From Eubacteriales bacterium (lineage in GTDB: Bacteria > Bacillota > Clostridia > Oscillospirales > Butyricicoccaceae): a DNA stretch of 64,000 nucleotides. The DNA is taken from positions 19,238-83,237 of the forward strand of contig JAUNSG010000011.1 of NCBI GenBank assembly GCA_030539335.1, in the 5' to 3' direction. The position numbers were made by a program, and so were the translations under genes. The notes under the pieces were generated by a model. That model worked only from the letters and a program-made list of their open reading frames with translations. It made no database searches and was not told the origin of the DNA. This document shows positions 10,331 to 26,651 of the stretch, piece after piece (position 1 is the stretch's first letter; the number at the start of each line of letters is the position of its first letter).

Positions 10331-10367
10331 ATATTAATATATTATACTTGCGTTTGGATCTTGTCAA
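10331..10367 (-). promoter_or_regulatory. sigmaA promoter with overlapping GntR-type operator (acetyltransferase)
   Basis: minus strand TTGACA (10367-10362)-N17-TAATAT (10344-10339); ATATTAATATATTA at 10331-10344. Confidence 0.75.
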
Positions 10368-10586
10368 CCTAGGATTCTTCCGCTTCGCAGGGTCGCCCTA
10401 TTCTGCCTCACAGCTATAATTTCAGAGAGGTTGCATCAAGGGCGGATACACGGTTCTCTCAGATCGTCGAAGTCTTCGCAGGCGGGATGCACCATTCACA
10501 AAACTGGATTGCATAGATCGCATCGAGTGCTATCTCATGCAGCAGACGGTATCGGATAATATGGAAAGAAAATGATAGATTACTAC

Positions 10587-10624
10587 TTGACAAAATGGCA
10601 CAAATAAACTAATATATTAATATA
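10587..10624 (+). promoter_or_regulatory. sigmaA promoter with operator (ALDH)
   Basis: TTGACA 10587-10592, N17, TAATAT 10610-10615, within TAATATATTAATATA. Confidence 0.8.
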
Positions 10625-10660
10625 CCAAAAAGGCTTTGGACAGAAAGGCAGGTTGAAAGA

Positions 10661-12052
10661 ATGGGAGTTCTTACAGTTACCAATCCGATGACAGGTGAGG
10701 TCCTGGACAAGTTGACACTTTCTACGCATGAGGAAGTGTCTGCAATGGTAGAGGCAGCGGTTGCAGCACAGGAAAGCTGGGCGGCAACTCCGGTTTATGA
10801 GCGTGCAAAATATTTGTACCGTTTTGCCGACGCAATGGAGCAGGAAGAAGAGGTGATTTCGCGGCTATCTTCCATCGATATGGCGAAGCCGATTGCGCAG
10901 TCCCGTATAGAGACGGCGGATGGCATCAAGCTGCTGCGTGCCGCAGCAGAGCGGGCGAAGCACCTGTATGGTGACGTCCTGTCTGACAGCGGCCCGGGGT
11001 TCGAAGGCGATCTTGTGTTCACCAAGAGGGAACCACTCGGCACAATTGCGTGCATCATCCCGTTTAACTTCCCGATTGAGCTGACGTTCCAGAAGATTGC
11101 ACCGGCTTTGGCAATGGGCAATACGGTTCTGGTTAAGGCGCCGAGTTCCAACCCGTTGGCGGTCCTGTCGCTGGACAAGTACGCCAAAGCAGCAGGTTTC
11201 CCAGAGGGCGTGGTACAATTCTTTGTCTCCGAGCGGGATGTGGTCAATGAGTGCGTGCTGGCGAATCCCAAGGTGGATGCGGTCAGCTTGACCGGCAGCA
11301 CTGCCGCAGGCAAGAAGATCGTAGAGGCAGGAGCAGACACGCTCAAGCGCACCTTCCTGGAACTGGGCGGCAATGACGCATTGATTGTTTTTGAAGATGC
11401 AGATGTTGACAGGGCCGTAGAAGAAATGGTAACCAGCCGTCTGGAAAACAACGGACAGGTATGCTGTTCGTCTAAGCGGTTTATTGTTCAGCGAAAGATT
11501 TACAATTCGGTTGCCTCCAAGCTGCTGGAAAAGCTGAGTTCCCTCAAGCGTGGCGATGCATTGGAGGAAGATGCTGTAGTCACTGCTTTGGTTTCGGAAC
11601 AAGCGGCAAAGGCGGTAGAAGAACAGATTGCACATACGATAGAACAGGGGGCAAGGCTGCTGTATGGCGGCACCAGAGACGGCGCACGCATTGAACCGAC
11701 GGTTTTGCTGGATGTAACCCCGGAAATGGACATAGCATCTAACATGGAAATTTTTGGGCCGGTATTTCCGCTGATTCCGTTTGATACGGAAGAGGAGGGG
11801 ATCTCGATTGCCAACAATTCGATCTATGGCTTGTCTTCCGGCTTGATGACCAAGGACATGAATCGCGCATTCCGTGTAGCGAGCAAGCTCAAAGCTGGCG
11901 GCGCAGTGGTCAATGGCAGCGGCGGATATCGTCATCTGGATCAGCCGTTCGGAGGATTCAAGCAGAGCGGTCTGGGCCGGGAAGGGATTAGCATTTCCCT
12001 GGAAGAGTTTAGCCATATCAAAGTTTACGTCGTCAAAGGCGCATTCAATTAA
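10661..12052 (+). CDS. NAD(P)-dependent aldehyde dehydrogenase (lactaldehyde/succinate-semialdehyde DH-like)
   Basis: IIPFNFP, TGSTAAG, LELGGND, NGQVCCS (catalytic Cys), EIFGPV. Confidence 0.93.
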   Translation: MGVLTVTNPMTGEVLDKLTLSTHEEVSAMVEAAVAAQESWAATPVYERAKYLYRFADAMEQEEEVISRLSSIDMAKPIAQSRIETADGIKLLRAAAERAKHLYGDVLSDSGPGFEGDLVFTKREPLGTIACIIPFNFPIELTFQKIAPALAMGNTVLVKAPSSNPLAVLSLDKYAKAAGFPEGVVQFFVSERDVVNECVLANPKVDAVSLTGSTAAGKKIVEAGADTLKRTFLELGGNDALIVFEDADVDRAVEEMVTSRLENNGQVCCSSKRFIVQRKIYNSVASKLLEKLSSLKRGDALEEDAVVTALVSEQAAKAVEEQIAHTIEQGARLLYGGTRDGARIEPTVLLDVTPEMDIASNMEIFGPVFPLIPFDTEEEGISIANNSIYGLSSGLMTKDMNRAFRVASKLKAGGAVVNGSGGYRHLDQPFGGFKQSGLGREGISISLEEFSHIKVYVVKGAFN

Positions 12053-12082
12053 ATTTTCCTCCTTTTTCTCTCTCTCACACAT

Positions 12083-12184
12083 AGGAAGGCGCAGCATTGC
12101 GCCTTCCTGCATGGATACAAATTCCATTTTTCGCGTAGGATGAACGAACGCCTATCTCGTAGGAAGATAGGCGTTTGTTTCTTT
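12083..12184. terminator. two hairpins between convergent ALDH and B12-enzyme genes
   Basis: AGGAAGGCGC/GCGCCTTCCT (12083-12108) and AACGAACGCCTATCT/AGATAGGCGTTTGTT (12143-12179). Confidence 0.7.
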
Positions 12185-12190
12185 GCGTGA

Positions 12191-13966
12191 TTAATCCAGG
12201 TTCGAAAGCTGCTCTACGGTCAGGGCAATATCATTTTCGGCGTGAATGCCGAGATCCATCAGCATGTCGCCAATTTCGATTGGTTCCGAGTGACCGGGAA
12301 GGATTGCATTGAGCTTGCCACCCATAAAGATCCAATATTCTTTGCCGCGTTCCTCGGCAAGCTGGATGAGCTGACGGCCATAATCCAGAGCCTGGCCGTT
12401 GTGACAGCTGATGCCGATGTACTTGGTATCCACCTCATCCGCCAGGTCAAGCATGTCAACCGCATCCATATCGACACCGGCATTGACGGTTTCCGCTCCC
12501 ATCTCCTGCAAAACACCTTCGACAAGAACCAGGCCATACGTATGGGCATCGCCGGAGCCGACCACGACCTTTTTGCCGGTCAACGAACCGCGCAGTTGCT
12601 TGGCATCCAGACCGTCGATGATTTCCTGCTTCATCGCTAAGGTCTGCCGACCGAGTACCGTAGTGTAGAACGGCTTGATTTCCGTGTTTGCTGTGCCATA
12701 GGTCGAAGAGTGGAACATTTGCTCGTAACGGATCGGGTTCATTTCTGTGAGAACCAAAAGCATTTCCACCGGATCTTCGATGTCGATCCCCGCTTCTTTC
12801 AATCCCTCTAAGCTGTTGCGGAATAGCTTTTCGCCTTCTTCTGCCATGACATCGCGCATCTTTTCCAGCGGCGCAAAGTTGAAGTACGGAAGCCATTCGT
12901 CTGCCTTCTCTTCCGCACGCTTGCCGGCGGCAAAAATATCCTCCAGCTCCTGCAGCGTTGGAACACGCAGTTTCTCGGTGATGGAAACCGGATTGATGCC
13001 CAAACCCATGTGATATTTCTTTTCGACTAGAATTTCAAACAGCATTTCCGGAACGGAAACACCATAATTGCCATGGATGTCATGATCCCACTGCAAGTTG
13101 GTAGAACCGTTTAGGTAACGGAGAACCGGCTGGTCTTCGGTGGAGAGAACCTTATGCAGAGCCATTGCTACGGCACAGCGGGTGTCATTTTCACTCAGAA
13201 GACCGCCAAAGCCAATGGTATAGCGGGCGCCGCATAGGGTTGTGCAGATGTAGTGCTCCAACATGGCATAGCCAATATAGGAGGCGCAGTCCAAAAAGTA
13301 TCCGGCGTAACCGTCATCCAGATAGGTTTTTACTTCAAAGTATTCGTCACGTTTGGAGGCGACAACGCCCAGCGCTTTGACCATATTACACATGCGTTCG
13401 ACGTTGTCGTCATAGCCGAAAAAGCCCCAGTTAAACTGGCAGAATTCACCGATGGTTGGCGAACCATACTCTATTGCGAGAATGGTATTGGCCAGGCCGT
13501 TCGGTGTCGAGAGATGATAATCGTTGAAGGAGATATCGATCGGGCAGGCGTACTGCTGTACGGCGTAATCCTCCGGGGAATACATCTCATAGCTGGTAGT
13601 CGCGGGAGCCTTTTCACGCCATTCCGGAGGGAGGGCAACCAGGCCGCTTGGAATAGACTGAATCGAATGGATTTCCAGACCGGACCGCTGGGAGAATTCA
13701 TACAGCTTCTTTTCTGCCTCTACCTGTTCCTCCAGGGTGGCAAGTCCCAGAAGGATATTCCAATAGATTTTTCCCTGTTTCATCAAATCACGCTTCATTT
13801 CCGCATGATTTTTATATTTGTCCTGGCTGCGGATAAACCCACCGCGGCCAGCCTGGATGCTGTTGCCGATTTCTATGCCTTCCTTCAGCATGTCGCGTCC
13901 GTCGGGATGCTTTCCGGGCTTCAGGCTTTGAAGATATTCCAGCGAGACTTGATTTAGATGACCCAT
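12191..13966 (-). CDS. cobalamin-binding enzyme, 2-methyleneglutarate-mutase-like (putative AdoCbl radical mutase/lyase)
   Basis: 591 aa; C-terminal B12 Rossmann domain with SGDAHTYG (DxHxxG, His475), GISCHNG, FMGGKL; N-terminal segments (YLDDGYAG, ASYIG) match my recollection of Mgm; no CxxxCxxC. Confidence 0.75.
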   Translation of the reverse strand: MGHLNQVSLEYLQSLKPGKHPDGRDMLKEGIEIGNSIQAGRGGFIRSQDKYKNHAEMKRDLMKQGKIYWNILLGLATLEEQVEAEKKLYEFSQRSGLEIHSIQSIPSGLVALPPEWREKAPATTSYEMYSPEDYAVQQYACPIDISFNDYHLSTPNGLANTILAIEYGSPTIGEFCQFNWGFFGYDDNVERMCNMVKALGVVASKRDEYFEVKTYLDDGYAGYFLDCASYIGYAMLEHYICTTLCGARYTIGFGGLLSENDTRCAVAMALHKVLSTEDQPVLRYLNGSTNLQWDHDIHGNYGVSVPEMLFEILVEKKYHMGLGINPVSITEKLRVPTLQELEDIFAAGKRAEEKADEWLPYFNFAPLEKMRDVMAEEGEKLFRNSLEGLKEAGIDIEDPVEMLLVLTEMNPIRYEQMFHSSTYGTANTEIKPFYTTVLGRQTLAMKQEIIDGLDAKQLRGSLTGKKVVVGSGDAHTYGLVLVEGVLQEMGAETVNAGVDMDAVDMLDLADEVDTKYIGISCHNGQALDYGRQLIQLAEERGKEYWIFMGGKLNAILPGHSEPIEIGDMLMDLGIHAENDIALTVEQLSNLD

Positions 13967-13990
13967 AATTGTGTTCTCCTTTTTATTTTT

Positions 13991-15931
13991 TTAGGTCCAT
14001 TGCGGACTGCCGATAGCAGTAGCAACAATCTTTGATTGAATAAATGTTTTTTCTTCCGAGCCGACCGATTGGGTATAGGTTGGGATGATGGAATGACCAA
14101 CCGCACAGTTTCCACCGCCAGCGAGCGTTGCCTTCGCAGCGGCTTCGGTTTCGACCGTCTGAATGGCCCATTTTTCCGCGTCCTGCAAGTTGGGAAACCA
14201 GGTTGCTCCCCGCACGGAATGGACGACAAACCCTTTGTGATACTGGTCCGGACGAATTAAAGCCTCCGCAGTCAGAAGAACTTGCCCGACAGCGGCGCCG
14301 ATTGCATTGGCGACTTCTGCGTGTTCCGGAATCGTCAGATCCGTGTCAAGGGATTGACTGACCGTTGGAAACCAGGCAGCGACGGGCGCTCCGATTGCGA
14401 CGATTGGTTTTTTTAAAGACAGCTGTGACCGGAGGATTGGGTGATCGGAATCCAGCAGGAAACGGATACTTGGATGATAGAAATTGAATGTGCTGTGTTC
14501 GAAGTCCGCTGTGCTTTGCAGGCAGGCGATCTGAAGCTGACGATGGACTGCATCCAGACAGCTTTGCAAAAAGGAATCCGGAGTTTGTGCGGCCCGCTTT
14601 GCCAGAATGCCCAGTGCAGCGGCGGATGTTTTCGAATTTCCATGTACACGGCCGGCAGCATGAAGCAGATCGGTTGGCGTCAATGAGCACCGCTGCAACA
14701 CCCCGCGGCTGACATAGGAATCAAAGTCCAGCTTATCAAAGTCATGCCCCATCTTTTCGGAAAGATAGAACCGGGTATGCGGACCGTCGCGGAGGAGGGA
14801 AGTGAGTTTTTGCTCCTCGTAGTCCGCCTGCTCGGAAGGCTGTAGAAGTGTATAGCAGTCTACCGCCTGGCCGGTAAAGATCTCATGGGAATAGGAAGGC
14901 AGATAGGTTTCCCATTCCGCGATTAAATTGGGATTTTCCGTACCGGCCAGACAGAGCGGAATGACACGCTGTGGGCCGACAACAATATCCCCTTTGATAT
15001 TCCACTGGATGTAACTGTCACCGCCGATCCCATGTGTGGATATTTCAGCGGCACGCAGCTGTGTTTTCCAGCCGCCCACCGTAGCGCCGGAGTCCGAGAG
15101 GGAGATCTGTCCCTTGGTTACATTGGCGATATCCGTCGTCGTGCCGCCCATGTCAATGATGAGCGCGTCCTTGGACTGGGTTAAAAATAATCCGCCGGAG
15201 ATACTTGCAGCCGGGCCGGACAGGACCGTTTCGATCGGGCGGTTCAAGGCGAATTGATCCAACATCAGCGTGCCGTCGCCGCGGACAACCATGCACGGGG
15301 CATGGATGTTTCGCTCCTTTAACGCCCTCTGTACGGCGGCGATGAGGTGGGTGATATTGGGGATTAGAGCGGCATTCAGAACTGCGGTAACCGTGCGGTC
15401 GAAAAAGCCTAACGAATTGCTCAGTTCGTGCGCGCAGACAACCGGGATGGAGAGAATGCGCTGCACAGACGCTTTGACCTGAAGCTCATGCGCAGGGTTC
15501 CGCACGCTGGCAAAGCCGGAGATCGCAACCGCATCGATCTGACCACGCCAAGAAGCGGCAATCGACTCGATTTCGGCGGATTGCATAGGTTCTTTTTCTC
15601 GCCCTTTGATATCCAACTGCCCGGCGATCTGGTGGAGCTTATGCGCGGGAACTGCCTGCGCGTCTAAGGGACGCCCCATATACAGCAGACCGACCCGTCC
15701 TCCTCTCCCTTCCACCACGGCATTCGTAGCAAGCGTGGTGGAAAGGCAGACTGTAGAAATGGCATCCGGCTGCGAAAAGTGCAGATGTTCCAGGCTTTTG
15801 ACGATGCCGTGCAGCAGATTATTTTTTGTGGTATATGCTTTGGCTTTGTGAAGAATTCGGCGGCTGGCCGCGTCGATGATGACACTATCCGTGAAGGTTC
15901 CGCCCGTATCAATTCCGAGAATCACAGACAT
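13991..15931 (-). CDS. hydantoinase/oxoprolinase A-family ASKHA ATPase without a B subunit
   Basis: GIDTGGTFTD, IDMGGTTTD, SGPAAS, GIGGDS, ANAIGAA; 646 aa. Confidence 0.85.
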   Translation of the reverse strand: MSVILGIDTGGTFTDSVIIDAASRRILHKAKAYTTKNNLLHGIVKSLEHLHFSQPDAISTVCLSTTLATNAVVEGRGGRVGLLYMGRPLDAQAVPAHKLHQIAGQLDIKGREKEPMQSAEIESIAASWRGQIDAVAISGFASVRNPAHELQVKASVQRILSIPVVCAHELSNSLGFFDRTVTAVLNAALIPNITHLIAAVQRALKERNIHAPCMVVRGDGTLMLDQFALNRPIETVLSGPAASISGGLFLTQSKDALIIDMGGTTTDIANVTKGQISLSDSGATVGGWKTQLRAAEISTHGIGGDSYIQWNIKGDIVVGPQRVIPLCLAGTENPNLIAEWETYLPSYSHEIFTGQAVDCYTLLQPSEQADYEEQKLTSLLRDGPHTRFYLSEKMGHDFDKLDFDSYVSRGVLQRCSLTPTDLLHAAGRVHGNSKTSAAALGILAKRAAQTPDSFLQSCLDAVHRQLQIACLQSTADFEHSTFNFYHPSIRFLLDSDHPILRSQLSLKKPIVAIGAPVAAWFPTVSQSLDTDLTIPEHAEVANAIGAAVGQVLLTAEALIRPDQYHKGFVVHSVRGATWFPNLQDAEKWAIQTVETEAAAKATLAGGGNCAVGHSIIPTYTQSVGSEEKTFIQSKIVATAIGSPQWT

Positions 15932-16077
15932 GGAAATTCCTCCGTTTCCGACGGGAATATACCCAGGATAGGGAAACAGAGGCTGGCCAAATGGCTCAGC
16001 CTCTGCCTCCGCAAGTGTTTGTACATAGTGTGTGAAAAGGAAGTTGGATGTATACGAATTTGGTATGGAATTGTTTT

Positions 16078-17493
16078 TTACTTGATGTTGTATGTCTCAG
16101 AAACCTTGGCGATTTCAGCATCCAGGATATCAAAAATTTCGTCGACCTGTGCAATGGTGAGGTTGATCGGCGGGATAAAGGACAGGCGGTTGCCATAATA
16201 GCCGTTCAGCTGGGCGAGCAGACCGGCATCGCGCAGATTATTGACCAGTGCATGTGCTTCTTTCTTGGCCGGCTCCTTTGTCGTGCGGTCCCGAACCAGC
16301 TCCAGACCGAAGTATACGCCCTTTGCCGAGTAGGTACCAACGATGGGATACTTCTCCATGAGCTGATCCGCTCTCTTAACGATCTGCTCTCCGGCTCTGG
16401 TGCAGACCTCCAGAAGGTTGTCTTCTTCGATAATGTCAAGAACCGTGTTTGCTACGCGGCAGCCCATGGAATAGCCGGCATAGGTAGAGCAGATGAAGCT
16501 TACGTCAATGTCTTCAAACAGTTCGGCACGGCCGACGATACCAGACATTGGGATACCGGCGCCAAGCGCTTTGCCGAAGACCAGGATATCCGGGGCGACA
16601 TTTTCGTGCTCACATGCCCACATCTTGCCGGTACGGCCCATACCCGTCTGAACTTCGTCAAAGATCAGCAGGAAGCCGTATTTATCGGCCAGCTTGCGCA
16701 GTTCTCTGAGGAAGCCTTCCGGCGGAACGATGTATCCGGCCGAGCTTTGGCAGGGCTCAACGATCAGAGCAGCGACGTTGCAGATACCGGAATCCGGAGC
16801 ACCCATCGGCGTAACGCTGGTTGACATCATATTATCGATGAGCTGGACACACTGCTTTGCGCAATCGACACCGTCGCCGTCACCGTACGGGTTGCGGTAC
16901 GCATAGGGATAAGGGAACTGGTGGATGCAATTGTCCTGGGCCGGCATCGGGTTGTAATAGCTGGTCATGCGGCCGGAGCCGGTCAGTCCCATGGTCGCGG
17001 AGTTCTGGCCATGATAGGCGCCATAGAATGAAATGATGTGCTGGCGCTTGGTTGCATAGCGTGCCAAACGGATTGCATTTTCGACTGCATCCGAGCCGGA
17101 CAGGGCCAGACGGACACGCTTCGGGAAGTCACCCGGCGTGATGTCGATCAGACGGTTTACCAGCTTCAAACGCTCCGGAGTCGGGAAGTCAAACCAGAAA
17201 TCCAGCTCATTCATATACTGGTCGTACATTGCGTCGGCAATGCGCTTGTCAGAGTGGCCGAGGTTCATAGCGGACATGCCGGAGATACAGTCGATGTATT
17301 CCTTACCGTCAACGTCCCAGATGCGGTTACCCTTGCCTCTTTTGATAATCTGCGGATAGTCCCACTTGGTGAAGAGAACATTGCCCGGATGCTCGTGCTT
17401 CAGGAAGTCAATCAGCCCTTCCTTGTTGCCCGGAGTGACGCTCTCTGCGTTTTCAATGCGTTCCAGCAGTGCTTCATAAGGCTTCTTTGCCAT
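16078..17493 (-). CDS. class III PLP aminotransferase (omega-amine/GABA aminotransferase-like)
   Basis: SGSDAVE, AYHG, IFDEVQTGMGRTG, FGKALGAG (PLP Lys), STYAG. Confidence 0.93.
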   Translation of the reverse strand: MAKKPYEALLERIENAESVTPGNKEGLIDFLKHEHPGNVLFTKWDYPQIIKRGKGNRIWDVDGKEYIDCISGMSAMNLGHSDKRIADAMYDQYMNELDFWFDFPTPERLKLVNRLIDITPGDFPKRVRLALSGSDAVENAIRLARYATKRQHIISFYGAYHGQNSATMGLTGSGRMTSYYNPMPAQDNCIHQFPYPYAYRNPYGDGDGVDCAKQCVQLIDNMMSTSVTPMGAPDSGICNVAALIVEPCQSSAGYIVPPEGFLRELRKLADKYGFLLIFDEVQTGMGRTGKMWACEHENVAPDILVFGKALGAGIPMSGIVGRAELFEDIDVSFICSTYAGYSMGCRVANTVLDIIEEDNLLEVCTRAGEQIVKRADQLMEKYPIVGTYSAKGVYFGLELVRDRTTKEPAKKEAHALVNNLRDAGLLAQLNGYYGNRLSFIPPINLTIAQVDEIFDILDAEIAKVSETYNIK

Positions 17494-17506
17494 GATTCAT
17501 ACCTCC

Positions 17507-17523
17507 ATATATTAATATATTAG
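17507..17523 (-). promoter_or_regulatory. operator copy abutting the aminotransferase RBS
   Basis: ATATATTAATATATTAG directly upstream of the GGAGGT RBS. Confidence 0.75.
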
Positions 17524-17604
17524 ATTGGCTGATTTTTTTGGGCACAATCGATCTGTTTGAGGCCGATGTACCCAATGGAGATGCCGCTCCGTGATTTGTT
17601 ATAA

Positions 17605-19066: not shown

Positions 19067-19846
19067 ATGAAATCAATATGCTATTCCAGCCGTGGCCAGA
19101 CTGTTTTCGGGTATGCACATGTACCTCAGACCAGGGGGAAAGCGCCGGCAATTCTGATGTGCCACGGATTTACGGGCTGTGCACAGGAAGGATCACGGCT
19201 GTTTGTACGATTTGCAGAGCAGGCATGCCGGCTTGGATTTTATGTCATGCGGATCGATTTTTTGGGTTCGGGGAACAGCGAACTGGATTTTGCAACGTAT
19301 ACTACGCCAAGCGGATGGATTGAGGACGCGAAAAATGGCATCCGGTTTTTAAAAGAGCAGCCGGAGGTGGACCCGGATCGGATCGCGATTCTTGGAGTCA
19401 GTCTCGGCGGATTTACTGCACTCATGACAGGAGCGGAGACCGATGTCGCGGCGGTGGTCGGCTGGGCTCCGGTGCTCAATCCTGCAAAAACCTTCCGTGG
19501 GATTTTGACGGAAAATAATTGGGATTATCTATTGGCGGGAAACCGGACAATCGAGTATATCTACTGTGGAAATCATTTTGCAGTCGGCAGTAAATTTGTA
19601 CAGGATCTGGAACGAATGTCGGTAACGGAGAGCTTAAAGCGGTATCGGGATATCCCGGTCTTGATTATGCAGGGAAGCAGCGATGCGGTGATCGACCCGC
19701 AGGATTCCGTAAAGCTGAAGCAATCCGGCGTATTCCCCTTTCAGCATGTCATGGTTGAAGGGGAAGAGCATTCCTTCCTGCTCCATGAGAAGAGCAATTT
19801 TTCCACGACGCTCGACTTCTTGCGCCGGGCGTTACTGGCCGTATAA
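19067..19846 (+). CDS. alpha/beta-fold serine hydrolase (esterase/amidase-like)
   Basis: CHGFTG, GVSLGG nucleophile elbow, DAVID, EEHSF; ATG at 19067 preferred over GTG at 19052. Confidence 0.88.
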   Translation: MKSICYSSRGQTVFGYAHVPQTRGKAPAILMCHGFTGCAQEGSRLFVRFAEQACRLGFYVMRIDFLGSGNSELDFATYTTPSGWIEDAKNGIRFLKEQPEVDPDRIAILGVSLGGFTALMTGAETDVAAVVGWAPVLNPAKTFRGILTENNWDYLLAGNRTIEYIYCGNHFAVGSKFVQDLERMSVTESLKRYRDIPVLIMQGSSDAVIDPQDSVKLKQSGVFPFQHVMVEGEEHSFLLHEKSNFSTTLDFLRRALLAV

Positions 19847-19909
19847 CGGTATGCATACCGATAAAAAAAGAAGCTGCATCGAGACAGCATCGATGCTGCT
19901 TCTTTCCTT

Positions 19910-20638
19910 CTATCTCATGAGCTGCCCTCCGTTGACATCCAGTGTTTCGCCGGTAATATAACCGGCATCGTCCGAAGTCAAAAAGCAGATGGCATGGGCC
20001 ACCTCCTCGGGAGAAGCGGCACGGCCAAGCGGTATCCCGTCGGCGGGAATGCCCTCCGTACGGGACATCGGCGTATCCACAGTCCCGGGGGAGACAGCGT
20101 TGACCGTGATGCCATGCTCTGCCCCCTGAAGGGCAAAGCATTTGGTCATCGCCAACAGGCCGCCCTTGGAGGCAGCATAGTGGATGCCGGAGAAAAAGGC
20201 TCCGCGCTGTCCGGCAATGGAGGAGACATTGACAATCCTGCCGTAGTGCTGCTGTTTCATGAAGGAAAATGCATGCCGACAGCAGAAAAATGGCGCCTTC
20301 AGATTGACGGTCATCATCCAATCCCATTCCGCCTCGGTGATTTCCTCCATTGTGTGAACGTTGGAGATACCGGCGCTGTTTACCAGGACGTCCAGCCGGT
20401 GATGACGGATGGAGATGGAATCCATCATGTCCTCGATCTGGCCTGGATCGGACAGATCACAGGGAATAAATTCCCCTGAGCCGCCGCGATCATATATTTT
20501 GCAGAGAGTTTTTTTCGCGTTTTCGGTGGAACGGCCGGTAAACAGAACATAGTCGCCGCGGGAAGCCAATTCAACGGCGGTTGCCTGGCCAATGCCGCTG
20601 GTTCCGCCCGTGACCAAAGAGATTCGTTTGTTACCCAT
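19910..20638 (-). CDS. short-chain dehydrogenase/reductase (FabG-like)
   Basis: TGGTSGIG, NSAG, HYAASK, LDVNGG. Confidence 0.9.
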   Translation of the reverse strand: MGNKRISLVTGGTSGIGQATAVELASRGDYVLFTGRSTENAKKTLCKIYDRGGSGEFIPCDLSDPGQIEDMMDSISIRHHRLDVLVNSAGISNVHTMEEITEAEWDWMMTVNLKAPFFCCRHAFSFMKQQHYGRIVNVSSIAGQRGAFFSGIHYAASKGGLLAMTKCFALQGAEHGITVNAVSPGTVDTPMSRTEGIPADGIPLGRAASPEEVAHAICFLTSDDAGYITGETLDVNGGQLMR

Positions 20639-20659
20639 GGTGCGCCCTCCTTTGTGTGA

Positions 20660-21187
20660 TTAAAATTCGATTCCTTCGCGGCTGGGCTGGCCACGATCAA
20701 ATGGATGCTTTATCTTGCAGATGTGGGATACATAATCCGCGTGACGCAGCAGGGTATCGCTGGGATTTTGTCCGGTAAGGATCACTTCCAGGTGGGATGG
20801 ACGATGGATCAGACAGGAAATCAGCTCTTCTTCGGCGATCAGGCCGGAAGCCACCGCGTAGACGGATTCATCTAGGAAGAGAAGATCGTATTCCGTGGAC
20901 CGGGCAAAGAGGTCCTTCAACAGCATGCGGTAGTGTTGAATGGTTTCCTCCCGCTCCGCGGGCGTCATTTGAAAGCTGAATTTTACATTGTCCGGTCCGT
21001 TTAACCGGGTTACGTTCGGCAGATGAGAAAGGGAACGGATCTCACCGGTGGAATTATCTTTCAAAAATTGATAGATCAGCACACGTTTTCCGCGCCCGGC
21101 GGCACGGATGCACAATCCCATTCCGGCGCTGGTTTTTCCTTTCCCGTCGCCGCAGTAGATGTGAATACAGCCTTTTTGTGTTTTCAT
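20660..21187 (-). CDS. cobO: cob(I)alamin/corrinoid adenosyltransferase (CobO/BtuR type)
   Basis: IHIYCGDGKGKTSA, QFLK, LDE, EVILTG, HPFDRG...REGIEF. Confidence 0.92.
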   Translation of the reverse strand: MKTQKGCIHIYCGDGKGKTSAGMGLCIRAAGRGKRVLIYQFLKDNSTGEIRSLSHLPNVTRLNGPDNVKFSFQMTPAEREETIQHYRMLLKDLFARSTEYDLLFLDESVYAVASGLIAEEELISCLIHRPSHLEVILTGQNPSDTLLRHADYVSHICKIKHPFDRGQPSREGIEF

Positions 21188-21255
21188 AGGGAAGCCTCCT
21201 GTTATATTTGTCCATAAAATGGGGACATTTTATTGATTTTCCAGCAAAAATGGTG

Positions 21256-21274
21256 TAGTATATTAGAGTATTAA
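21256..21274. promoter_or_regulatory. degenerate operator copy between cobO and gntR (possible autoregulation)
   Basis: TAGTATATTAGAGTATTAA; one mismatch to the TAATATATTA palindrome. Confidence 0.45.
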
Positions 21275-21320
21275 AATTGTGAGGATATAGAAAAATTATA
21301 TTGTATTGAGGAGTAAAACA

Positions 21321-22004
21321 ATGGCAGAGCTGAAAAGAAAGCGAGGACAGAATCGCACGGAAGTATATAACACGCTGAAGGATTCGATTCAATATCTGGA
21401 ACTGATGCCGGGATCGATTATCCACGAAAACGAATTGATCGAGCAGCTTGGTGTCAGCCGCACCCCCATTCGGGAAGCGCTGATCCGTCTGTCCAATGAG
21501 TACATGGTAGAGGTATATCCGCAGAGAGGTACATATGTATCAGCGATTGATTTCCATCTGGCACATGAGATTGCCTATATGCGGCACATTCTGGATACCG
21601 AAGTTTGTATGACTCTATGTAAAGGCAAGGTTCCGCTTCAGGATGCAGTGGATCAGGAGCTGTATTTTATGTCGCAGTGCGTAAAGAAGCAGGATGTTGT
21701 CGGATACATCAAGCACGACAATGCGTTCCATAATGAGATTTTTCGCGTGGCCGGTCACGAGATGATTTGGGAAATTATCTCGAATTCCCGCGCCCATTAC
21801 AATCGCATGCTCACATTGGATCTCCGACGTCCCGGCGTTCTGGAAAAATCGTATCAGGAGCATCAGGACATTGTCCGTGCGATTGAGAGCGGAGATGAGA
21901 CGGCATTGATGCAGATTTTGGACCGCCATCATGACCATCAAGATATGGAACGGCGTGAGGCGGAGATCCGTGCGATGTTTCCCGACTATTTTGCAAATGA
22001 ATAA
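21321..22004 (+). CDS. GntR-family regulator (FCD domain)
   Basis: ELIEQLGVSRTPIREAL winged HTH; DNAFHNEI FCD motif. Confidence 0.95.
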   Translation: MAELKRKRGQNRTEVYNTLKDSIQYLELMPGSIIHENELIEQLGVSRTPIREALIRLSNEYMVEVYPQRGTYVSAIDFHLAHEIAYMRHILDTEVCMTLCKGKVPLQDAVDQELYFMSQCVKKQDVVGYIKHDNAFHNEIFRVAGHEMIWEIISNSRAHYNRMLTLDLRRPGVLEKSYQEHQDIVRAIESGDETALMQILDRHHDHQDMERREAEIRAMFPDYFANE

Positions 22005-22060
22005 CGGATTCTGAGCTGTGGCAATGCTGCAGCTCTTTGTTTGGAAAAGAGAAATAACGC

Positions 22061-22097
22061 TTGACATCGGAATAATAATATATTAATATATTAATAT
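22061..22097 (+). promoter_or_regulatory. sigmaA promoter with extended operator (iolB-like)
   Basis: TTGACA 22061-22066, N17, TAATAT 22084-22089; TAATATATTAATATATTAATAT (two overlapping palindromes). Confidence 0.82.
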
Positions 22098-22147
22098 CGA
22101 AATTGCAAGAGGCTTGCGAAAAAAATAAAATGTAGGAGGCGAAATCA

Positions 22148-22939
22148 ATGTATATTGATAAGGAATGTGTGCGCGGCTACAACGAGTATATCCGCTGCGA
22201 TGTCAACAACGGAGAAAACAGCTATATGGATGTCGCGTTGCTTATCATGGAGGATGGAGATACGTATTCCTTCCATGAAAAAGAGAAAGAAATGGCATGG
22301 ATCCTGTTCCAGGGCAAAGCGACTGTGGAATATGACGGCAAGACGGTAGAGATGGATCGCCCGAATCCCTTTGACTACAGCACCTACTGCCTTCATCTCG
22401 CGGCCGGCGGGTCGTGCAAGCTGACGGCACACGACCATTGTGAGTTTTATGTGCAGAAGACCTACAATGATAAGAAGTTTGAGAATCATTTGTATCTGCC
22501 GGAGGAGACCGATACCTGGCGCAGAGGCGCCGACGGGGAATGTGCCGGATGCATCAAGCGTGACGTCCGCACCAGCTTTGACTATGAGATCAATCCGCTG
22601 TCCAACATGGTTCTGGGCGAGGTGGTCAATCTTCCGGGCAAGTGGTCTTCCTACCCGCCGCACTGGCATCCGCAGCCGGAGGTTTATTTCTATCACTTTG
22701 AGAAGAAGGAGGGCTTTGGCGCAGGCTGGGTAGACGGCAAGCTGGAGGAGCTGCATCACAACGGCCTCGCCATCATCACCAAGGATACGCACTCCATGGT
22801 GATGGCGCCGGGATATGCATGCTGTTACGCATGGGGAATCCGCCATCTGCCGGACAATCCCTGGAAGAAGACCCGCATTGATGATCCGGTCCATGAGTGG
22901 CTGTATGATCCGCAGGCGGAGTTCTGGAAGGGAGAGTAA
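22148..22939 (+). CDS. IolB-like (5-deoxy-glucuronate isomerase/KduI cupin family) isomerase
   Basis: GEVVNLPGKWSSYPPHWH, EVYFY, TH..V.APGY. Confidence 0.85.
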   Translation: MYIDKECVRGYNEYIRCDVNNGENSYMDVALLIMEDGDTYSFHEKEKEMAWILFQGKATVEYDGKTVEMDRPNPFDYSTYCLHLAAGGSCKLTAHDHCEFYVQKTYNDKKFENHLYLPEETDTWRRGADGECAGCIKRDVRTSFDYEINPLSNMVLGEVVNLPGKWSSYPPHWHPQPEVYFYHFEKKEGFGAGWVDGKLEELHHNGLAIITKDTHSMVMAPGYACCYAWGIRHLPDNPWKKTRIDDPVHEWLYDPQAEFWKGE

Positions 22940-23180
22940 TCTTGCGTTGTACTTGTACAAATCCTGACTGTCCGCTGCATCCCACCAGACGGCTGTACGC
23001 CGTGCATGGAGAAAAATCTGCGGCGCCGGGATTGGACTTCGCGGAGTTGGTTTTGAAAAACAGAGATCAATAAAGTCGACAGCACGGTATAACATGAGAG
23101 AACCACCGAAAAAATAAATACACAATAGCAAAGAGAAATCCTCTGCATGGGAAGAGACGCAACCATACAGAGGATTTTCT

Positions 23181-23675
23181 TTAGTTTGGTGTAGTTTCGT
23201 CGGAGTCAGAACGATCGGATGGCAAAGCGTGTGGCGTTGGGATTGGAAGACGAAGAAAAACGGTAAAGATGGAAGATACGATACCAATGCCCAAAGCCAG
23301 CGTACCTGCAATTCCAATGGTGTGAATACCGGTGTACAATGCGAGCATGGTGGAATTTTGGATGCAATACAACATGGTTTGATAGATTCCGCCGCCCGGA
23401 ACAAGAGGAATGAGGGAGACGGCGAGAAAAATACTGACCGGAGCATGCAGCGTCCGTGCACAGCACTCGGAATACAGCGTGATACCGATAGCCGCCAGAA
23501 AGTAACATGGGATACTGCTGGAGGAAAACGGGATGCCGCTCAGCGCGTAAATTAACCAACCGAGCATTCCGCCAAAGGCGGAAAACAGGAGCTTTCGCCC
23601 GGAAATTTGAAAGATAATACCGAAGCATAGGCTCGCAAAAAAGCTCATGGTGCATTCGTAGAGTATATTAACCAT
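23181..23675 (-). CDS. ThrE-family exporter, small subunit
   Basis: FGGMLGW, IPLVPGG; coupled to the upstream ThrE-family gene. Confidence 0.85.
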   Translation of the reverse strand: MVNILYECTMSFFASLCFGIIFQISGRKLLFSAFGGMLGWLIYALSGIPFSSSSIPCYFLAAIGITLYSECCARTLHAPVSIFLAVSLIPLVPGGGIYQTMLYCIQNSTMLALYTGIHTIGIAGTLALGIGIVSSIFTVFLRLPIPTPHALPSDRSDSDETTPN

Positions 23676-24438
23676 ATAACCCTCCCAAAAGAGTCAGGAT
23701 GCTGAGAGGAAGCGCAACACCAACAGCAATTCCGGCAGCGACCAGCAGGGCTTCGGCGAATTTGCTGATTCCAGCCATCACGTCACCGGCAACCAGGTCG
23801 CGGATTGCATTGGTGATCGGCAGCCCGGGAACAAGGAACATGATAGACCCGATAATCACATTGCTATAGGTGGGGATGAATCGCAGGCGATAACAGCATA
23901 CCGCGGCAAGCGAAACCCAGGCCGCGCTGATGATATGGATAAACAATCCATTGAAGCGCAAACGCTGCATACCAGAGTGGATCAGCCAGAGAATGATACC
24001 GATCCCAAAGGCACTTACGGCTTCAAAGAGAGATCCATGAAACAGCAAGGTGAAGAAAAAGCCGATACCGCCGGTGGCAAGACAGAGGTAATGGTTCGGA
24101 AACGTACAGCTTCCCGCGATTTCCGCAATGCGGGAATCGATTTTTCGGTAGTCCATAGGAGACGAACAGATTTCACGACAGAGAGAGTTTAGCTGATCCA
24201 ATTTGCCAAGATTGGTTCCGCGGTGATGTATTCTGCGCACACGGGTGACCGGCTGTGCCCCATCCCGCACAAAGGAAGTGATGATTGCCGTCGGTACCGC
24301 ATAGACATTCGCTTCCGTTGCACCGTAAGCAAAGCAGATGCGGGAGATGGATTCCTCTACTCGGTAGATTTCCGCTCCGTTTTCCAACAGAGCGGCGCCG
24401 ATGTTTACGGAGACCGTAATTAACTCAGAAGATGTCAT
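23668..24438 (-). CDS. ThrE-family threonine/serine exporter
   Basis: LLENGAEIYRVEESI, LVPGLPITNAIRDLVAGD; start MTSSE at 24438. Confidence 0.9.
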   Translation of the reverse strand: MTSSELITVSVNIGAALLENGAEIYRVEESISRICFAYGATEANVYAVPTAIITSFVRDGAQPVTRVRRIHHRGTNLGKLDQLNSLCREICSSPMDYRKIDSRIAEIAGSCTFPNHYLCLATGGIGFFFTLLFHGSLFEAVSAFGIGIILWLIHSGMQRLRFNGLFIHIISAAWVSLAAVCCYRLRFIPTYSNVIIGSIMFLVPGLPITNAIRDLVAGDVMAGISKFAEALLVAAGIAVGVALPLSILTLLGGLYG

Positions 24439-24590
24439 GATAAATCGTCGTCCTTTGGTTCGGAAAGAGTAATACAGTAGTATCATGAATGCCGGAGATT
24501 GTCAAGGTATTCCGTTGGAAAAGACAATTTGAGACAGGAAGAGAACAAAAATACAGACATACAAAAATAGGGAAAATTCCCCAATACTCC

Positions 24591-24624
24591 TTGACAAAAT
24601 GAGTGATATATATTAATATATTAG
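24591..24624 (+). promoter_or_regulatory. sigmaA promoter with operator (SSS symporter)
   Basis: TTGACA 24591-24596, N17, TAATAT 24614-24619; ATATATTAATATATTAG. Confidence 0.82.
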
Positions 24625-24756
24625 AGGATTACATGAGCTGCTGCAAACAGTGTTACATCGTACAACGAGAAAGGGTGTATGAGAAGGGAGCTTGAGGAGG
24701 TGTTGGCCCAGATCGGATAGAAAAAGAAGTAGAAACAGAAACGGAAGGAGAAAATA

Positions 24757-26496
24757 ATGAATTTTTTTAGTTCAATGGGATTCACGGCGGTATCGTTTCT
24801 TGCGTTTACCGTATTAGTTGCTGTAATTGCCTACTTTTACAGCAGAAATCGGGATATGAGCTCAGAGAGCGGATATTATCTGGCGGGCAGATCGCTGCCG
24901 GGTATTGTCATTGCCGGTTCGCTTATTATGACCGATTTATCGGCATCACAGCTGATTGGCAACAATGGACAATCGGTACAAGTCGGAATGGGCGTATTTG
25001 CGGCACAGGGATTTGGATTCTCTGGTATGATTCTGGTTGCACTGCTATTGGTTCCAAAATATTTGCAATCAGGAATCAGCACGATGCCGGAGTTTTATGA
25101 GCTTCGCTATGACAAATTCACCCGCAATTTGACCAGCATTATCATGATGATAAGTTATATTGTCGTTTTTCTGCCAAGCACCTTATATGCCGGCGCACAG
25201 GTATTCATCACGATTTTCAATGTAGATGGCATGCTGGGGATCTCTTACACAATGGCGATGACTATCATTTGTGTGATTATTGCGATCATCGGATTCTGTT
25301 ACGCGTTCTTTGGTGGTCTGAAGGCAATTGCAATGTCGGATACGATCAACGGCTTGGGAATGCTGGTTGGAGGCATTATAATAACGATTGCGGGAATGAT
25401 ATACCTGTCGAGTATATTAGGAGGAGACGGGTCGTTCCTAGACGGTTTGGATAAGTTCCTTCATACAGATCCTGCGATGATGAATATTATTAATGAAGCG
25501 GATTCCAACGAGCCGTGGTGGCCATGGCCGGTTATTTTAACCGGATTGACGGTAAATAACGTGTATTTCTGGGGCTGCGATCAGGCTATTGTCCAGCGCG
25601 CATTTGGAGCCAAGAGTATGGCCCATGCACAGAAGGGCATGATTTATGCCGGACTGTTGACATTGATCACCCCGTTTTTCCTGGTATTGCCGGGCATTAT
25701 TGCAAAATTTGTATTCACGGATATGGATTGGGCAACGAGTGGCGACCTTGCTTTCCCGATGCTGATTAATGCCGTACTGCCAAGGCCGGTTCTGGGATTC
25801 TTTGCAGCGTGTGTATTTGGCGCAATTATATCGACCTTCAATTCGTATTTGAACTCCGCATCTTCTATTTTTGCGATCAATATTTACAGCGATATTATTC
25901 ATCCGGAGGCGGATGAAAAGACCGTTGTTAAGTATGGCAGACTGTTTAGCGTCGTAGTTGCTGTCTGCGCGACCGCTATTGCGCCTTTCTTGGCGAATGT
26001 CAATGGTATTTTTTCATGGATGAATATGGCATTAGGTCTGTTTAATACACCAATTCTGATCATCACCTTGTTTGCGATCTTCTCAAAAAGAGCGCCTAGA
26101 TATCTGGGCAAGATTATCATTCCGATACATATTGTGATATATTTGCTGCTAAACTATCTGCTGCCGCATGTGATTCCGTTCTTTGGAACCATTCACTATA
26201 TGTATTACACGTTCGTACTATTTATTTTCGATGTCATTGTTTCGTTGATTGTCACGAAGATGAATCCGCTGGAGGAGGAGTACACGCTGCCAAACAACCC
26301 GCCGAAGGATATGGATCTGTCTCCATGGAAGTATCGAATTCATGCGTCGGTTGCGACACTGGCAATCGTGGCGATTATTTACGTTATATTCTCTCCGCTC
26401 GGATTCGGCAAGTGCGACGAGACGACCTGGGAGAGATACCAGAACAGCATGGACCGTTCTGCGGTTACCTGTGTCGTTGACCAGAGCGTACTATAA
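24757..26496 (+). CDS. sodium:solute symporter (YidK/SGLT-like)
   Basis: YYLAGRSL, STMPEFYELRY, YFWGCDQAIVQR, STFNSYLNS. Confidence 0.93.
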   Translation: MNFFSSMGFTAVSFLAFTVLVAVIAYFYSRNRDMSSESGYYLAGRSLPGIVIAGSLIMTDLSASQLIGNNGQSVQVGMGVFAAQGFGFSGMILVALLLVPKYLQSGISTMPEFYELRYDKFTRNLTSIIMMISYIVVFLPSTLYAGAQVFITIFNVDGMLGISYTMAMTIICVIIAIIGFCYAFFGGLKAIAMSDTINGLGMLVGGIIITIAGMIYLSSILGGDGSFLDGLDKFLHTDPAMMNIINEADSNEPWWPWPVILTGLTVNNVYFWGCDQAIVQRAFGAKSMAHAQKGMIYAGLLTLITPFFLVLPGIIAKFVFTDMDWATSGDLAFPMLINAVLPRPVLGFFAACVFGAIISTFNSYLNSASSIFAINIYSDIIHPEADEKTVVKYGRLFSVVVAVCATAIAPFLANVNGIFSWMNMALGLFNTPILIITLFAIFSKRAPRYLGKIIIPIHIVIYLLLNYLLPHVIPFFGTIHYMYYTFVLFIFDVIVSLIVTKMNPLEEEYTLPNNPPKDMDLSPWKYRIHASVATLAIVAIIYVIFSPLGFGKCDETTWERYQNSMDRSAVTCVVDQSVL

Positions 26497-26617
26497 TACG
26501 ACAATCCATTCGCAGCAGCATTCGCGAAGCACTAAGCTGTACCCGATATCTTCGGTACGGCTTGGTGCGCTGTTGGGGAATCCTAGCTGCTGTGTTGTGA
26601 AACGATGGAAACAGGGC

Positions 26618-26651
26618 TTGACAAGGAAAGATAAATATATTAATATATTAG
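26618..26651 (+). promoter_or_regulatory. sigmaA promoter with operator ([2Fe-2S] gene)
   Basis: TTGACA 26618-26623, N17, TAATAT 26641-26646; ATATATTAATATATTAG. Confidence 0.82.

What the first reader, a model, noticed from the sequence alone, without database searches (positions are those of the whole stretch)
10331..26651. Recurring operator WATATTAATATATTA fused to the -10 box of seven TTGACA-N17-TAATAT promoters
Seen: copies at 10331, 10610, 17507, 17605, 17695, 19034, 22076, 24607 and 26634, with a degenerate copy at 21256 upstream of gntR. In seven cases a perfect TTGACA lies exactly 17 nt before TAATAT, so the palindrome TAATATATTA overlaps the -10 element. I saw no copy outside 10.3-26.7 kb when scanning by eye. 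Inference: this is the repressor site of the local FCD-type GntR. It is a pure A/T box built from 8-bp-period overlapping palindromes, unlike the GT..AC-type boxes typical of FadR-subfamily regulators. It defines the pathway boundaries independently of protein annotation.
Basis: partly seen in the sequence, partly recalled or inferred. Interest (0 to 1): 0.75.

Follow-up and report, generated by a model that had tools for sequence, protein, structure and literature searches.

The report
AT-only operator of a GntR regulon
A 16-base A/T-only palindrome sits on the -10 box of nine promoters in one 17-kb catabolic gene island and travels through evolution with the island's GntR-type regulator, so it is almost certainly that repressor's binding site: a solid but fairly ordinary regulon prediction with an unusual sequence.

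Summary
The palindrome AATATATTAATATATT (2 mismatches or fewer) occurs at nine promoter-proximal places between 10.3 and 26.7 kb, plus a degenerate copy before gntR. Seven copies are fused to TTGACA-N17-TAATAT promoters.

- **Specificity in this genome:** in the whole 2.76-Mb genome the 11 best matrix hits all lie in this locus. Seven of the nine TTGACA-N17-TAATAT promoters in the genome are here.
- **Link to the regulator:** all 12 other loci fetched that encode an ortholog of the local FCD-type GntR (42-89% identity; Butyricicoccus, Ruminococcus, Eubacterium, Bilifractor, Planctomycetaceae, a deltaproteobacterium) carry 1-5 strong copies. Local shuffles predict 0-0.04 copies for the ten of those loci that were shuffle-tested. 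The copies lie before gntR and its neighbours, even where the neighbours are different genes.
- **Controls:** ten loci with paralogous GntRs have none. Within the genus only the two genomes with the ortholog are enriched.

Best reading: a repressor operator that blocks the -10 element and is relieved by an unknown pathway metabolite. The "pure A/T, non-GT..AC" description holds in this genome. Across orthologs the consensus is t-R-ATATATT|AATATAT-Y-a. Non-canonical FadR-subfamily motifs (BioR, NanR) are already known.

Binding and repression are untested. This is a new member of a known kind, of moderate interest.

The parts
10328..10343 (.). Operator 1 (TTTATATT|AATATATT). It lies on the minus-strand promoter TTGACA(10367-10362)-N17-TAATAT(10344-10339) of the Mac-type acetyltransferase gene 9603-10169. 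The palindrome centre is about 8 nt downstream of the start of the -10 box, so the site covers the -10 and the likely transcription start.
   Evidence: 24.8 bits
10603..10626 (.). Operator 2, two registers 8 nt apart (AATAAACTAATATATT and AATATATTAATATACC). It lies on the promoter TTGACA(10587)-N17-TAATAT(10610-10615) of the aldehyde dehydrogenase gene 10661-12052.
   Evidence: 22.1 and 27.6 bits
17506..17521 (.). Operator 3 (CATATATT|AATATATT). It directly abuts the GGAGG ribosome-binding site of the aminotransferase gene, about 100 nt downstream of its promoter. It is an auxiliary or roadblock site with no -35 partner.
   Evidence: 24.1 bits; three sites with similar spacing in the closest relative G005:C201
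17604..17619 (.). Operator 4 (perfect AATATATT|AATATATT). It lies on the minus-strand promoter TTGACA(17635-17630)-N17-TAATAT(17612-17607) of the operon encoding the class III aminotransferase (16078-17493), the hydantoinase-like ATPase (13991-15931) and the B12 enzyme (12191-13966).
   Evidence: 32.5 bits; orthologous sites in L002, L003, L136, L137, L148
17696..17711 (.). Operator 5 (AATATATT|AATATATA). It lies on the promoter TTGACA(17680)-N17-TAATAT(17703-17708) of the alanine dehydrogenase gene 17788-18903.
   Evidence: 31.6 bits; conserved in L002, L003, L136, L148
19031..19046 (.). Operator 6 (AAAGTATT|AATATATT). It lies before the alpha/beta-hydrolase gene (ORF 19052-19846, probable ATG at 19067). 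The promoter is weaker (TTGATG-N16-TATTAA or N19-TAATAT), and the site follows the alanine dehydrogenase terminator at 18951-18978.
   Evidence: (27.8 bits); weak orthologous site at L003:5592 before the hydrolase gene
21253..21276 (.). Degenerate operator 7 (AGTATATT|AGAGTATT). It overlaps the -10 box (TAGTAT) of the gntR promoter TTGATT-N17-TAGTAT, in the 133-nt divergent gap between gntR and cobO-SDR. It is the likely site of weak autoregulation.
   Evidence: 13.9 bits; better autoregulatory sites before gntR orthologs in L001, L002, L003, L136, L140, L143, L144, L148, L150
21321..22004 (+). The gntR gene: a 227-aa regulator with a GntR winged helix-turn-helix domain and an FCD domain. It is the proposed repressor that binds the operators.
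   Evidence: 136 homologs with E<=1e-20 (the 120 listed are 33-89% identical), recognition helix SRTPIRE and wing YPQxGTYV near-invariant
22077..22100 (.). Operator 8, the strongest: three and a half 8-nt units (AATATATT AATATATT AATATCGA). It lies on the promoter TTGACA(22061)-N17-TAATAT(22084-22089) of the KduI/IolB-family gene 22148-22939.
   Evidence: 34.6-35.7 bits; conserved in L002, L003, L143, L150
24607..24622 (.). Operator 9 (TATATATT|AATATATT). It lies on the promoter TTGACA(24591)-N17-TAATAT(24614-24619) of the sodium:solute symporter gene 24757-26496. It sits in the divergent gap with the ThrE-type exporter genes 23181-24486, for which no separate promoter or operator was found.
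   Evidence: 28.1 bits
26634..26649 (.). Operator 10 (perfect AATATATT|AATATATT). It lies on the promoter TTGACA(26618)-N17-TAATAT(26641-26646) of a monocistronic 96-aa 2Fe-2S protein gene (26696-26986), which is ended by the terminator at 27029-27062.
   Evidence: (32.1 bits)
9603..26986 (.). Extent of the predicted regulon. It comprises the acetyltransferase, aldehyde dehydrogenase, B12 enzyme plus ATPase plus aminotransferase, alanine dehydrogenase, hydrolase, SDR plus corrinoid adenosyltransferase, gntR, KduI/IolB-like gene, (ThrE exporter), SSF transporter and 2Fe-2S protein.

Best explanation
The element is the operator of the FCD-type GntR repressor encoded at 21321-22004.

**The site.** The unit is a 16-bp palindrome, AATATATT|AATATATT. 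The consensus across lineages is t-R-ATATATT|AATATAT-Y-a. A GntR dimer would bind it with one winged helix-turn-helix per half-site. Because the 8-nt half-site is itself palindromic, tandem units 8 nt apart create overlapping alternative or extra half-sites.

**Position on the promoters.** At seven sigma-A promoters the palindrome is built into the promoter, in one of two registers:
- Its centre falls on the first base of the -10 hexamer and it spans about -19 to -4. This holds for five promoters.
- It sits 8 nt further downstream and spans about -11 to +5. This holds for the two promoters at 10.3 and 10.6 kb.

The -10 hexamer is therefore forced to read TAATAT, and a perfect TTGACA -35 box compensates.

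**Mechanism.** Bound repressor would exclude RNA polymerase from the -10 element. An extra site next to the aminotransferase ribosome-binding site would add a roadblock or cooperative binding. A weak site on the gntR promoter would give leaky autoregulation. An unidentified pathway metabolite, probably a carboxylate as for other FCD regulators, would release the repressor. That would switch on about nine transcription units of an uncharacterised B12-dependent catabolic island together.

**Shown versus inferred.**
- Shown: the sites, their promoter geometry, their genome-wide specificity, and their co-inheritance with the regulator.
- Inferred: binding, the direction of regulation (repression), and the effector.
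For: 1. **Non-random and locus-specific.**
2. **Information beyond a promoter's needs.** Palindrome positions -8 to -1 are equally conserved on both arms, including the arm that lies in the -35/-10 spacer. One strong site (17506) has no promoter context.
3. **Footprint in close relatives.** In three Butyricicoccus relatives (GntR 75-89% identical) the sites are retained at the gntR promoter (L001, L002, L003) and, in L002 and L003, also at the alanine dehydrogenase and KduI promoters; the aminotransferase-side site is kept in L003, and L002, whose contig ends before the aminotransferase gene, has a site at the corresponding position upstream of alanine dehydrogenase. The surrounding spacers diverge.
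4. **Co-occurrence with the regulator.** 12 of 12 further loci with a GntR ortholog (42-89% identical) have 1-5 site clusters of 20 bits or more. For the ten of them that were shuffle-tested (all but L148 and L150), shuffles within 60-bp blocks predict 0-0.04.
5. **Targets differ, motif stays.** The motif persists where the neighbouring genes are different and no B12 gene is present in the fetched stretch:
   - L139: aldehyde dehydrogenase as the adjacent gene.
   - L141: EamA transporter and Mac acetyltransferase.
   - L144: ILVD/EDD dehydratase, LarA-like gene and an ABC transporter.

6. **Same-genus presence/absence.** The 14-mer count is 8 and 7 in the two genomes with the ortholog. It is 0-2 in the 22 genomes without it.
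7. **Negative controls.** None of 10 paralogous FCD-GntR loci reaches 20 bits. A B12-homolog locus without the GntR (L149) has no site.
8. **Conserved DNA-reading parts.** The recognition helix and wing are invariant or nearly so in 120 homologs, matching the invariant motif.
9. **No other regulator.** No other DNA-binding protein is encoded in the island. No Rfam element occurs in the leader regions.
10. **Precedent for extra half-sites.** Additional half-sites 7-12 nt from FadR-subfamily palindromes are a described feature (PMC4494728).
Against: - There is no binding, expression or transcription-start data.
- One locus (L137/L138) keeps the operator at the aminotransferase promoter although no GntR gene lies within the 21 kb fetched. 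The regulator may be elsewhere on that contig or genome, but this could not be checked.
- The motif lacks the GT/AC box that marks most FadR-subfamily operators.
- My attempt to explain this lack does not discriminate. The residue equivalent to FadR Arg35 is never Arg in the orthologs, but the motif-less paralogs lack Arg there too.
- The matrix used to find sites in other loci was built from this window's sites, so the cross-lineage consensus is biased towards it.
- Within the genus the regulator, the island and the motif are inherited together. That comparison alone therefore cannot separate the regulator from the island.
Confidence: 0.78

Rival explanations
1. The palindrome is bound by a different protein that is not encoded in the island, such as a global or nucleoid-associated A/T-binding factor or another transcription factor. 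On this reading the GntR recognises something else.
For: L137/L138 keeps the motif without a GntR gene within 21 kb. The site has no GT/AC box.
Against: The motif is confined to one locus of the genome, which a global factor would not produce. It follows the GntR ortholog into loci with unrelated neighbours. It is absent from same-genus genomes that lack the ortholog. No other regulator is common to the loci.
Confidence: 0.08
2. The GntR binds the sites but is not a simple repressor. It might act as an activator or dual regulator, or need the ligand as a co-repressor.
For: The direction of regulation was not measured. Some FadR-subfamily members, FadR itself for example, activate certain promoters (established knowledge).
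Against: The sites cover the -10 hexamer and the spacer or start site of promoters that already have a perfect -35 box and 17-nt spacing. That geometry is typical of steric repression and is incompatible with known class I or class II activation.
Confidence: 0.08
3. There is no regulator site. The shared sequence is a specialised promoter element (an unusual extended -10 box or an alternative sigma factor's target), or a promoter cassette that was copied around the island.
For: Seven copies coincide with a promoter, and the -10 hexamer is part of the motif.
Against: - The motif is a two-fold symmetric palindrome found in both orientations and in two registers relative to the -35 box.
- It occurs away from promoters (17506; L137:8319).
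- The spacers and flanks of the copies are unrelated, so they are not duplications.
- It is conserved in genomes from several phyla beside one regulator family.
- No sigma factor is encoded nearby.
Confidence: 0.04

Closest known systems
FadR-subfamily (FCD) GntR repressors with palindromic operators on their target promoters, such as Bacillus subtilis GntR, E. coli DgoR, UxuR/ExuR, LldR and PdhR
   Same: The domain architecture is the same (GntR winged helix-turn-helix plus FCD). The regulator is encoded locally and probably autoregulated. The operators are A/T-rich palindromes that overlap promoters of a catabolic cluster. Extra half-sites lie 7-12 nt away (PMC4494728).
   Different: The conserved TKGT/ACMA box is missing. 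The 14-bp core contains only A and T in the consensus. At most 35% sequence identity to any solved or named member (closest solved chain 7u5q_A, E=1.5e-26, function not stated). The effector and the pathway are unknown.
BioR of alpha-proteobacteria (operator TTATMKATAA)
   Same: It is a FadR-subfamily regulator whose palindromic operator is A/T-rich and does not fit the GT..AC consensus (PMC4494728).
   Different: The BioR site is a 10-bp palindrome of a different sequence with a central M/K position. It controls a biotin regulon. No relationship to this orthologous group was shown, and no tandem 8-nt arrangement is reported.
NanR of E. coli (repeated TGGTATAW boxes)
   Same: The half-site resembles the G-containing variants found here (GGTATATT, GATATATT). 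Several adjacent boxes with short periodicity allow more than one dimer or register.
   Different: NanR boxes are direct repeats containing GG. Here the arrangement is an inverted repeat, the core is G-free in this genome, and NCBIfam similarity to NanR is weak (E=2.4e-12, far below the cut-off).

Membership tests
GntR family, FadR/FCD subfamily (the regulator) | N-terminal GntR-type winged helix-turn-helix domain | tested here: met
   PF00392, E=4.2e-18, 65 bits against a cut-off of 27
GntR family, FadR/FCD subfamily (the regulator) | C-terminal all-helical FCD effector/oligomerisation domain | tested here: met
   PF07729, E=8.9e-18, 65 bits against a cut-off of 24.3. The Asp/His pattern (DNAFH, EH, HH) aligns with the solved FCD protein 3sxy. 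Its role in metal binding is inferred.
Canonical FadR-subfamily operator (NyGTM-N0-1-KACNy / TKGT..ACMA) | Palindromic, A/T-rich site | tested here: met
   16-bp perfect palindrome; symmetric matrix
Canonical FadR-subfamily operator (NyGTM-N0-1-KACNy / TKGT..ACMA) | Conserved GT and AC dinucleotides flanking the centre | tested here: not met
   No G/C in the consensus at positions -7 to +7, in 10 window sites and 32 sites from other loci. G occurs only at position +/-8, in about a quarter of the non-window half-sites. The family consensus is taken from PMC4494728.
Canonical FadR-subfamily operator (NyGTM-N0-1-KACNy / TKGT..ACMA) | Site lies upstream of the regulator gene and/or adjacent regulated operons | tested here: met
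   Sites lie before gntR and its neighbours in 13 of 13 loci that carry the ortholog
Promoter-occluding repressor operator | Overlap with core promoter elements (-35, spacer, -10 or start site) | tested here: met
   Seven sites overlap the -10 box of TTGACA-N17-TAATAT promoters. The promoters are consensus matches, not mapped transcription starts.
Promoter-occluding repressor operator | The protein binds the site and lowers transcription, and an inducer relieves this | not testable with these tools
   No binding or expression data.

The most novel reading that the evidence does not exclude
This widespread GntR/FCD orthologous group (over 100 members in Bacillota, Planctomycetota and deltaproteobacteria) may read DNA in a way not described for the family. 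On this reading it recognises a G/C-free 16-bp palindrome, mainly through DNA shape and minor-groove contacts, and uses tandem self-palindromic 8-nt units to bind in shifted registers or as higher oligomers. It would serve as the master switch of an undescribed B12-radical pathway for an amine-bearing, sugar-like substrate. The operator would then be a ready-made tool for finding that pathway's genes and inducer.
Probability: 0.2. Interest if true: 0.6.

Novelty: new member of a known kind. Interest (0 to 1): 0.4.

Why it matters
The operator gives an annotation-independent outline of a 17-kb regulon built around an uncharacterised single-chain B12 enzyme, its ATPase partner, an aminotransferase/alanine dehydrogenase pair and transporters.

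The same regulator and motif recur beside this cluster in distant phyla. The site can therefore be used to collect pathway genes across genomes.

It also offers a simple experimental handle: finding which compound releases the repressor would identify the pathway's substrate.

For the GntR field it adds a well-populated group whose motif lacks the GT/AC hallmark. In itself, though, it is a standard case of a local repressor sitting on its promoters.

Tried and rejected
- **Collection scan with the exact 14-mer.** Scanning the genome collection for ATATTAATATATTA was uninformative. A/T-only words are common in A/T-rich genomes. Only one of the 120 hits (L064) lay next to a GntR gene.
- **Literature searches.** Searches for the motif strings and for the pathway found nothing relevant.
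- **Extra regulon members in this genome.** The best outside hits are inside an ATP-grasp ORF (C32), between an ABC transporter and an AraC gene at only 19 bits (C5), or between co-directional genes in an A/T-rich patch (C30). All were rejected.
- **Residue-level explanation for the missing G/C.** The residue equivalent to FadR Arg35 is never Arg in 121 homologs. It is also non-Arg in the ten motif-less paralogs, so this is permissive at best.
- **Known RNA elements in the leaders.** None was found.
- **GntR gene elsewhere on the L137 contig.** The record is not held.

Full report
**1. The observation**

- The pattern WATATTAATATATTA with up to one mismatch matches 15 overlapping positions, all between 10330 and 26650. 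None is expected in dinucleotide-preserving shuffles.
- TTGACA-N17-TAATAT matches exactly seven times, always at those sites, again with none expected.
- Read as a palindrome, the unit is AATATATT|AATATATT.
- Copies with two mismatches or fewer start at 10328, 10603/10611, 17506, 17604, 17696, 19031, 22077, 24607 and 26634.
- A degenerate copy lies at 21253-21276 before gntR.
- The window lies in a 2.76-Mb, 51.6% GC draft genome. In that genome:
  - TAATATATTA occurs 11 times, ten of them here.
  - The 11 best hits of a matrix built from the nine sites are all in this locus, with a gap before the next hit.
  - The three best outside candidates are not convincing.
  - Seven of the nine TTGACA-N17-TAATAT promoters lie in this locus. 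None of the 47 TTGACA-N17-TATAAT promoters does.
- The description is therefore accurate, apart from coordinates that are off by 1-3 nt.

**2. Surroundings**

The sites punctuate a compact island:

| Gene | Coordinates | Strand |
|---|---|---|
| Mac-type acetyltransferase | 9603-10169 | - |
| Aldehyde dehydrogenase | 10661-12052 | + |
| 591-aa protein with a C-terminal B12-binding domain | 12191-13966 | - |
| Hydantoinase-A-like ATPase | 13991-15931 | - |
| Class III aminotransferase | 16078-17493 | - |
| Alanine dehydrogenase | 17788-18903 | + |
| Alpha/beta hydrolase | 19052-19846 | + |
| SDR | 19910-20638 | - |
| Corrinoid adenosyltransferase | 20660-21187 | - |
| GntR/FCD regulator | 21321-22004 | + |
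| KduI/IolB-family protein | 22148-22939 | + |
| ThrE-type exporter pair | 23181-24486 | - |
| Sodium:solute symporter | 24757-26496 | + |
| 96-aa 2Fe-2S protein | 26696-26986 | + |

- A strong terminator at 27029-27062 closes the last unit.
- The glycyl-radical enzyme further on has its own AraC-type neighbour.
- The GntR is the only DNA-binding protein in the island.
- No Rfam family matches the leader regions.

**3. Geometry**

- In five promoters (17635, 17680, 22061, 24591, 26618) the palindrome starts 10 nt after the -35 hexamer. Its centre falls on the first base of the -10 hexamer.
- In the two promoters at 10367 and 10587 it is shifted 8 nt downstream, over the -10 box and the probable start site.
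- The -10 hexamer is thus part of the palindrome. This explains the unusual TAATAT and, plausibly, the perfect -35 hexamers.
- One strong site (17506) has no promoter and abuts the aminotransferase ribosome-binding site.
- The 8-nt half-site is itself palindromic, so runs of units (three and a half at 22073-22100) create overlapping registers.
- Both arms carry equal information, including the arm in the -35/-10 spacer, where a promoter needs none.

**4. Who binds it: comparative evidence**

*Close relatives.* The GntR has close orthologs in three Butyricicoccus-type assemblies (75-89% identical).
- L003 keeps the gene order. It holds sites at the aminotransferase/alanine dehydrogenase divergent promoters, before gntR and before the KduI-like gene.
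- L002 and L001 agree as far as their contigs reach.
- The spacers and flanks differ between these loci.

*Wider search.* 136 homologs were found at E<=1e-20. I fetched loci either through these regulators or through the B12 enzyme. Every locus with a GntR ortholog has sites of 20 bits or more:

| Locus | Assembly label | GntR identity |
|---|---|---|
| L136 | Ruminococcus-labelled | 55% |
| L148 | (not labelled) | 56% |
| L139 | Eubacterium | 62% |
| L141 | Bilifractor | 58% |
| L140 | Planctomycetaceae | 57% |
| L142 | (not labelled) | 55% |
| L143 | (not labelled) | 50% |
| L150 | (not labelled) | 46% |
| L144 | a deltaproteobacterium | 42% |

- These loci hold one to five site clusters each. 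For the loci that were shuffle-tested (not L148 or L150), shuffles within 60-bp blocks predict 0-0.04.
- The sites lie before gntR itself and before adjacent operons.
- L139, L141 and L144 lack the B12 gene in the fetched stretch and have different neighbours, yet keep the motif. This separates the motif from the pathway genes and ties it to the regulator.

*Controls.*
- Ten loci with paralogous FCD regulators (23-35% identical) have no site of 20 bits or more.
- A B12-homolog locus with a LuxR-type regulator and no GntR has none.
- Among 24 genomes of the genus, the 14-mer with up to one mismatch occurs 8 and 7 times in the two genomes that have the ortholog. It occurs 0-2 times in the rest, similar to a reversed-pattern control.

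*The exception.* In L137/L138 the aminotransferase promoter keeps TTGACA-N17-TAATAT with two sites, but no GntR gene lies in the 21 kb in hand. I could not search the rest of that record.

**5. The motif in the family context**

- Pooling 32 sites from other loci gives t-R-ATATATT|AATATAT-Y-a, with G at position +/-8 in about a quarter of half-sites. This consensus is biased by the seed matrix.
- A survey of GntR motifs gives the FadR-subfamily consensus as an A/T-rich palindrome with conserved TKGT/ACMA boxes. It lists BioR (TTATMKATAA) and NanR (TGGTATAW repeats) as exceptions, and notes extra half-sites 7-12 nt from many palindromes (PMC4494728).
- The present motif therefore lacks the hallmark box but is not without precedent. 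Its 8-nt tandem units fit the described extra half-sites.
- The same paper links Arg at the FadR Arg35 position with the G of the box. Here that residue is Asn37. It is never Arg in 121 homologs, while the recognition helix SRTPIRE and the wing are invariant. However, the motif-less paralogs also lack Arg there, so this does not explain the specificity.
- The closest solved structure is an unnamed GntR-family protein, 7u5q, without DNA.

**6. Mechanism**

The best-supported model is a dimeric repressor that occupies the -10 region of each promoter.
- It has an auxiliary site in the aminotransferase leader and a weak autoregulatory site.
- It is released by a pathway metabolite bound in the FCD domain.
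- The sites, their geometry and the co-inheritance with the regulator are shown.
- Binding, the direction of regulation and the effector are inferred from how the family works.
- The nature of the pathway (an amine-bearing, possibly sugar-derived substrate, judging from sugar-type transporters, ROK regulators, aldolase and dehydrogenases in related clusters) remains open. It was not pursued beyond two literature searches that found nothing.

**7. Verdict**

- This is a new, well-populated member of a known kind of system, with an atypical operator sequence.
- Its main value is as a handle on an uncharacterised B12-dependent pathway.

Noticed in passing
L064:5677-6400: A Campylobacterales assembly has a GntR/FCD gene (33% identical to the window's) with TAATATATTAATATATTAATA 25-45 nt before its start. 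An ABC importer follows. It may be a distant member of the same operator class, but the genome is 33% GC and chance is not negligible (0.13 expected).
   Followed up: partly
L137:8260-8345 (same in L138): A B12 cluster (enzyme 70% identical) keeps TTGACA-N17-TAATAT and two operator copies before its aminotransferase. No GntR gene lies in the 21 kb fetched; the only regulators in view are a ROK protein and a two-component system.
   Followed up: partly
window 9603-10169; L139:595-1161; L141:10714-11280: A Mac-type hexapeptide acetyltransferase recurs near the GntR orthologs even in loci without the B12 genes. In the window it has its own operator-bearing promoter. It may be a conserved regulon member, for example for detoxification of a non-metabolised analogue.
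   Followed up: no
L149:7921-15613: A homolog of the B12 enzyme (61% identical) sits with an aldehyde:ferredoxin oxidoreductase, two hydantoinase-like genes and a LuxR/GerE regulator. There is no GntR and no motif, so the enzyme family is used in at least one other context.
   Followed up: no
L150:1-1073 and 10001-11776: One contig carries two paralogs of the B12 enzyme. One stands next to a GerE regulator and one in the GntR-controlled cluster, which here also has PfkB kinase and class II aldolase genes.
   Followed up: no
window 27029-27436: The 135-aa ORF begins inside a strong terminator hairpin (27029-27062) and overlaps the end of the radical-SAM activase gene on the other strand. It has no family match and is probably not a gene.
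   Followed up: partly
window 30704-31591: An AraC-family regulator lies divergent from the glycyl-radical enzyme (28210-30522) and next to TRAP transporter genes (31744-34116). This looks like a separate regulatory unit that bounds the GntR regulon.
   Followed up: partly
window 19932-19959: An eighth near-identical promoter string (TTGACA-N16-TAATAT) lies inside the SDR gene on the opposite strand, without the palindrome. It is probably a chance match.
   Followed up: no
window 24487-24590: No convincing promoter or separate operator was found for the ThrE-type exporter pair (23181-24486, minus strand). Whether it belongs to the regulon is open.
   Followed up: no
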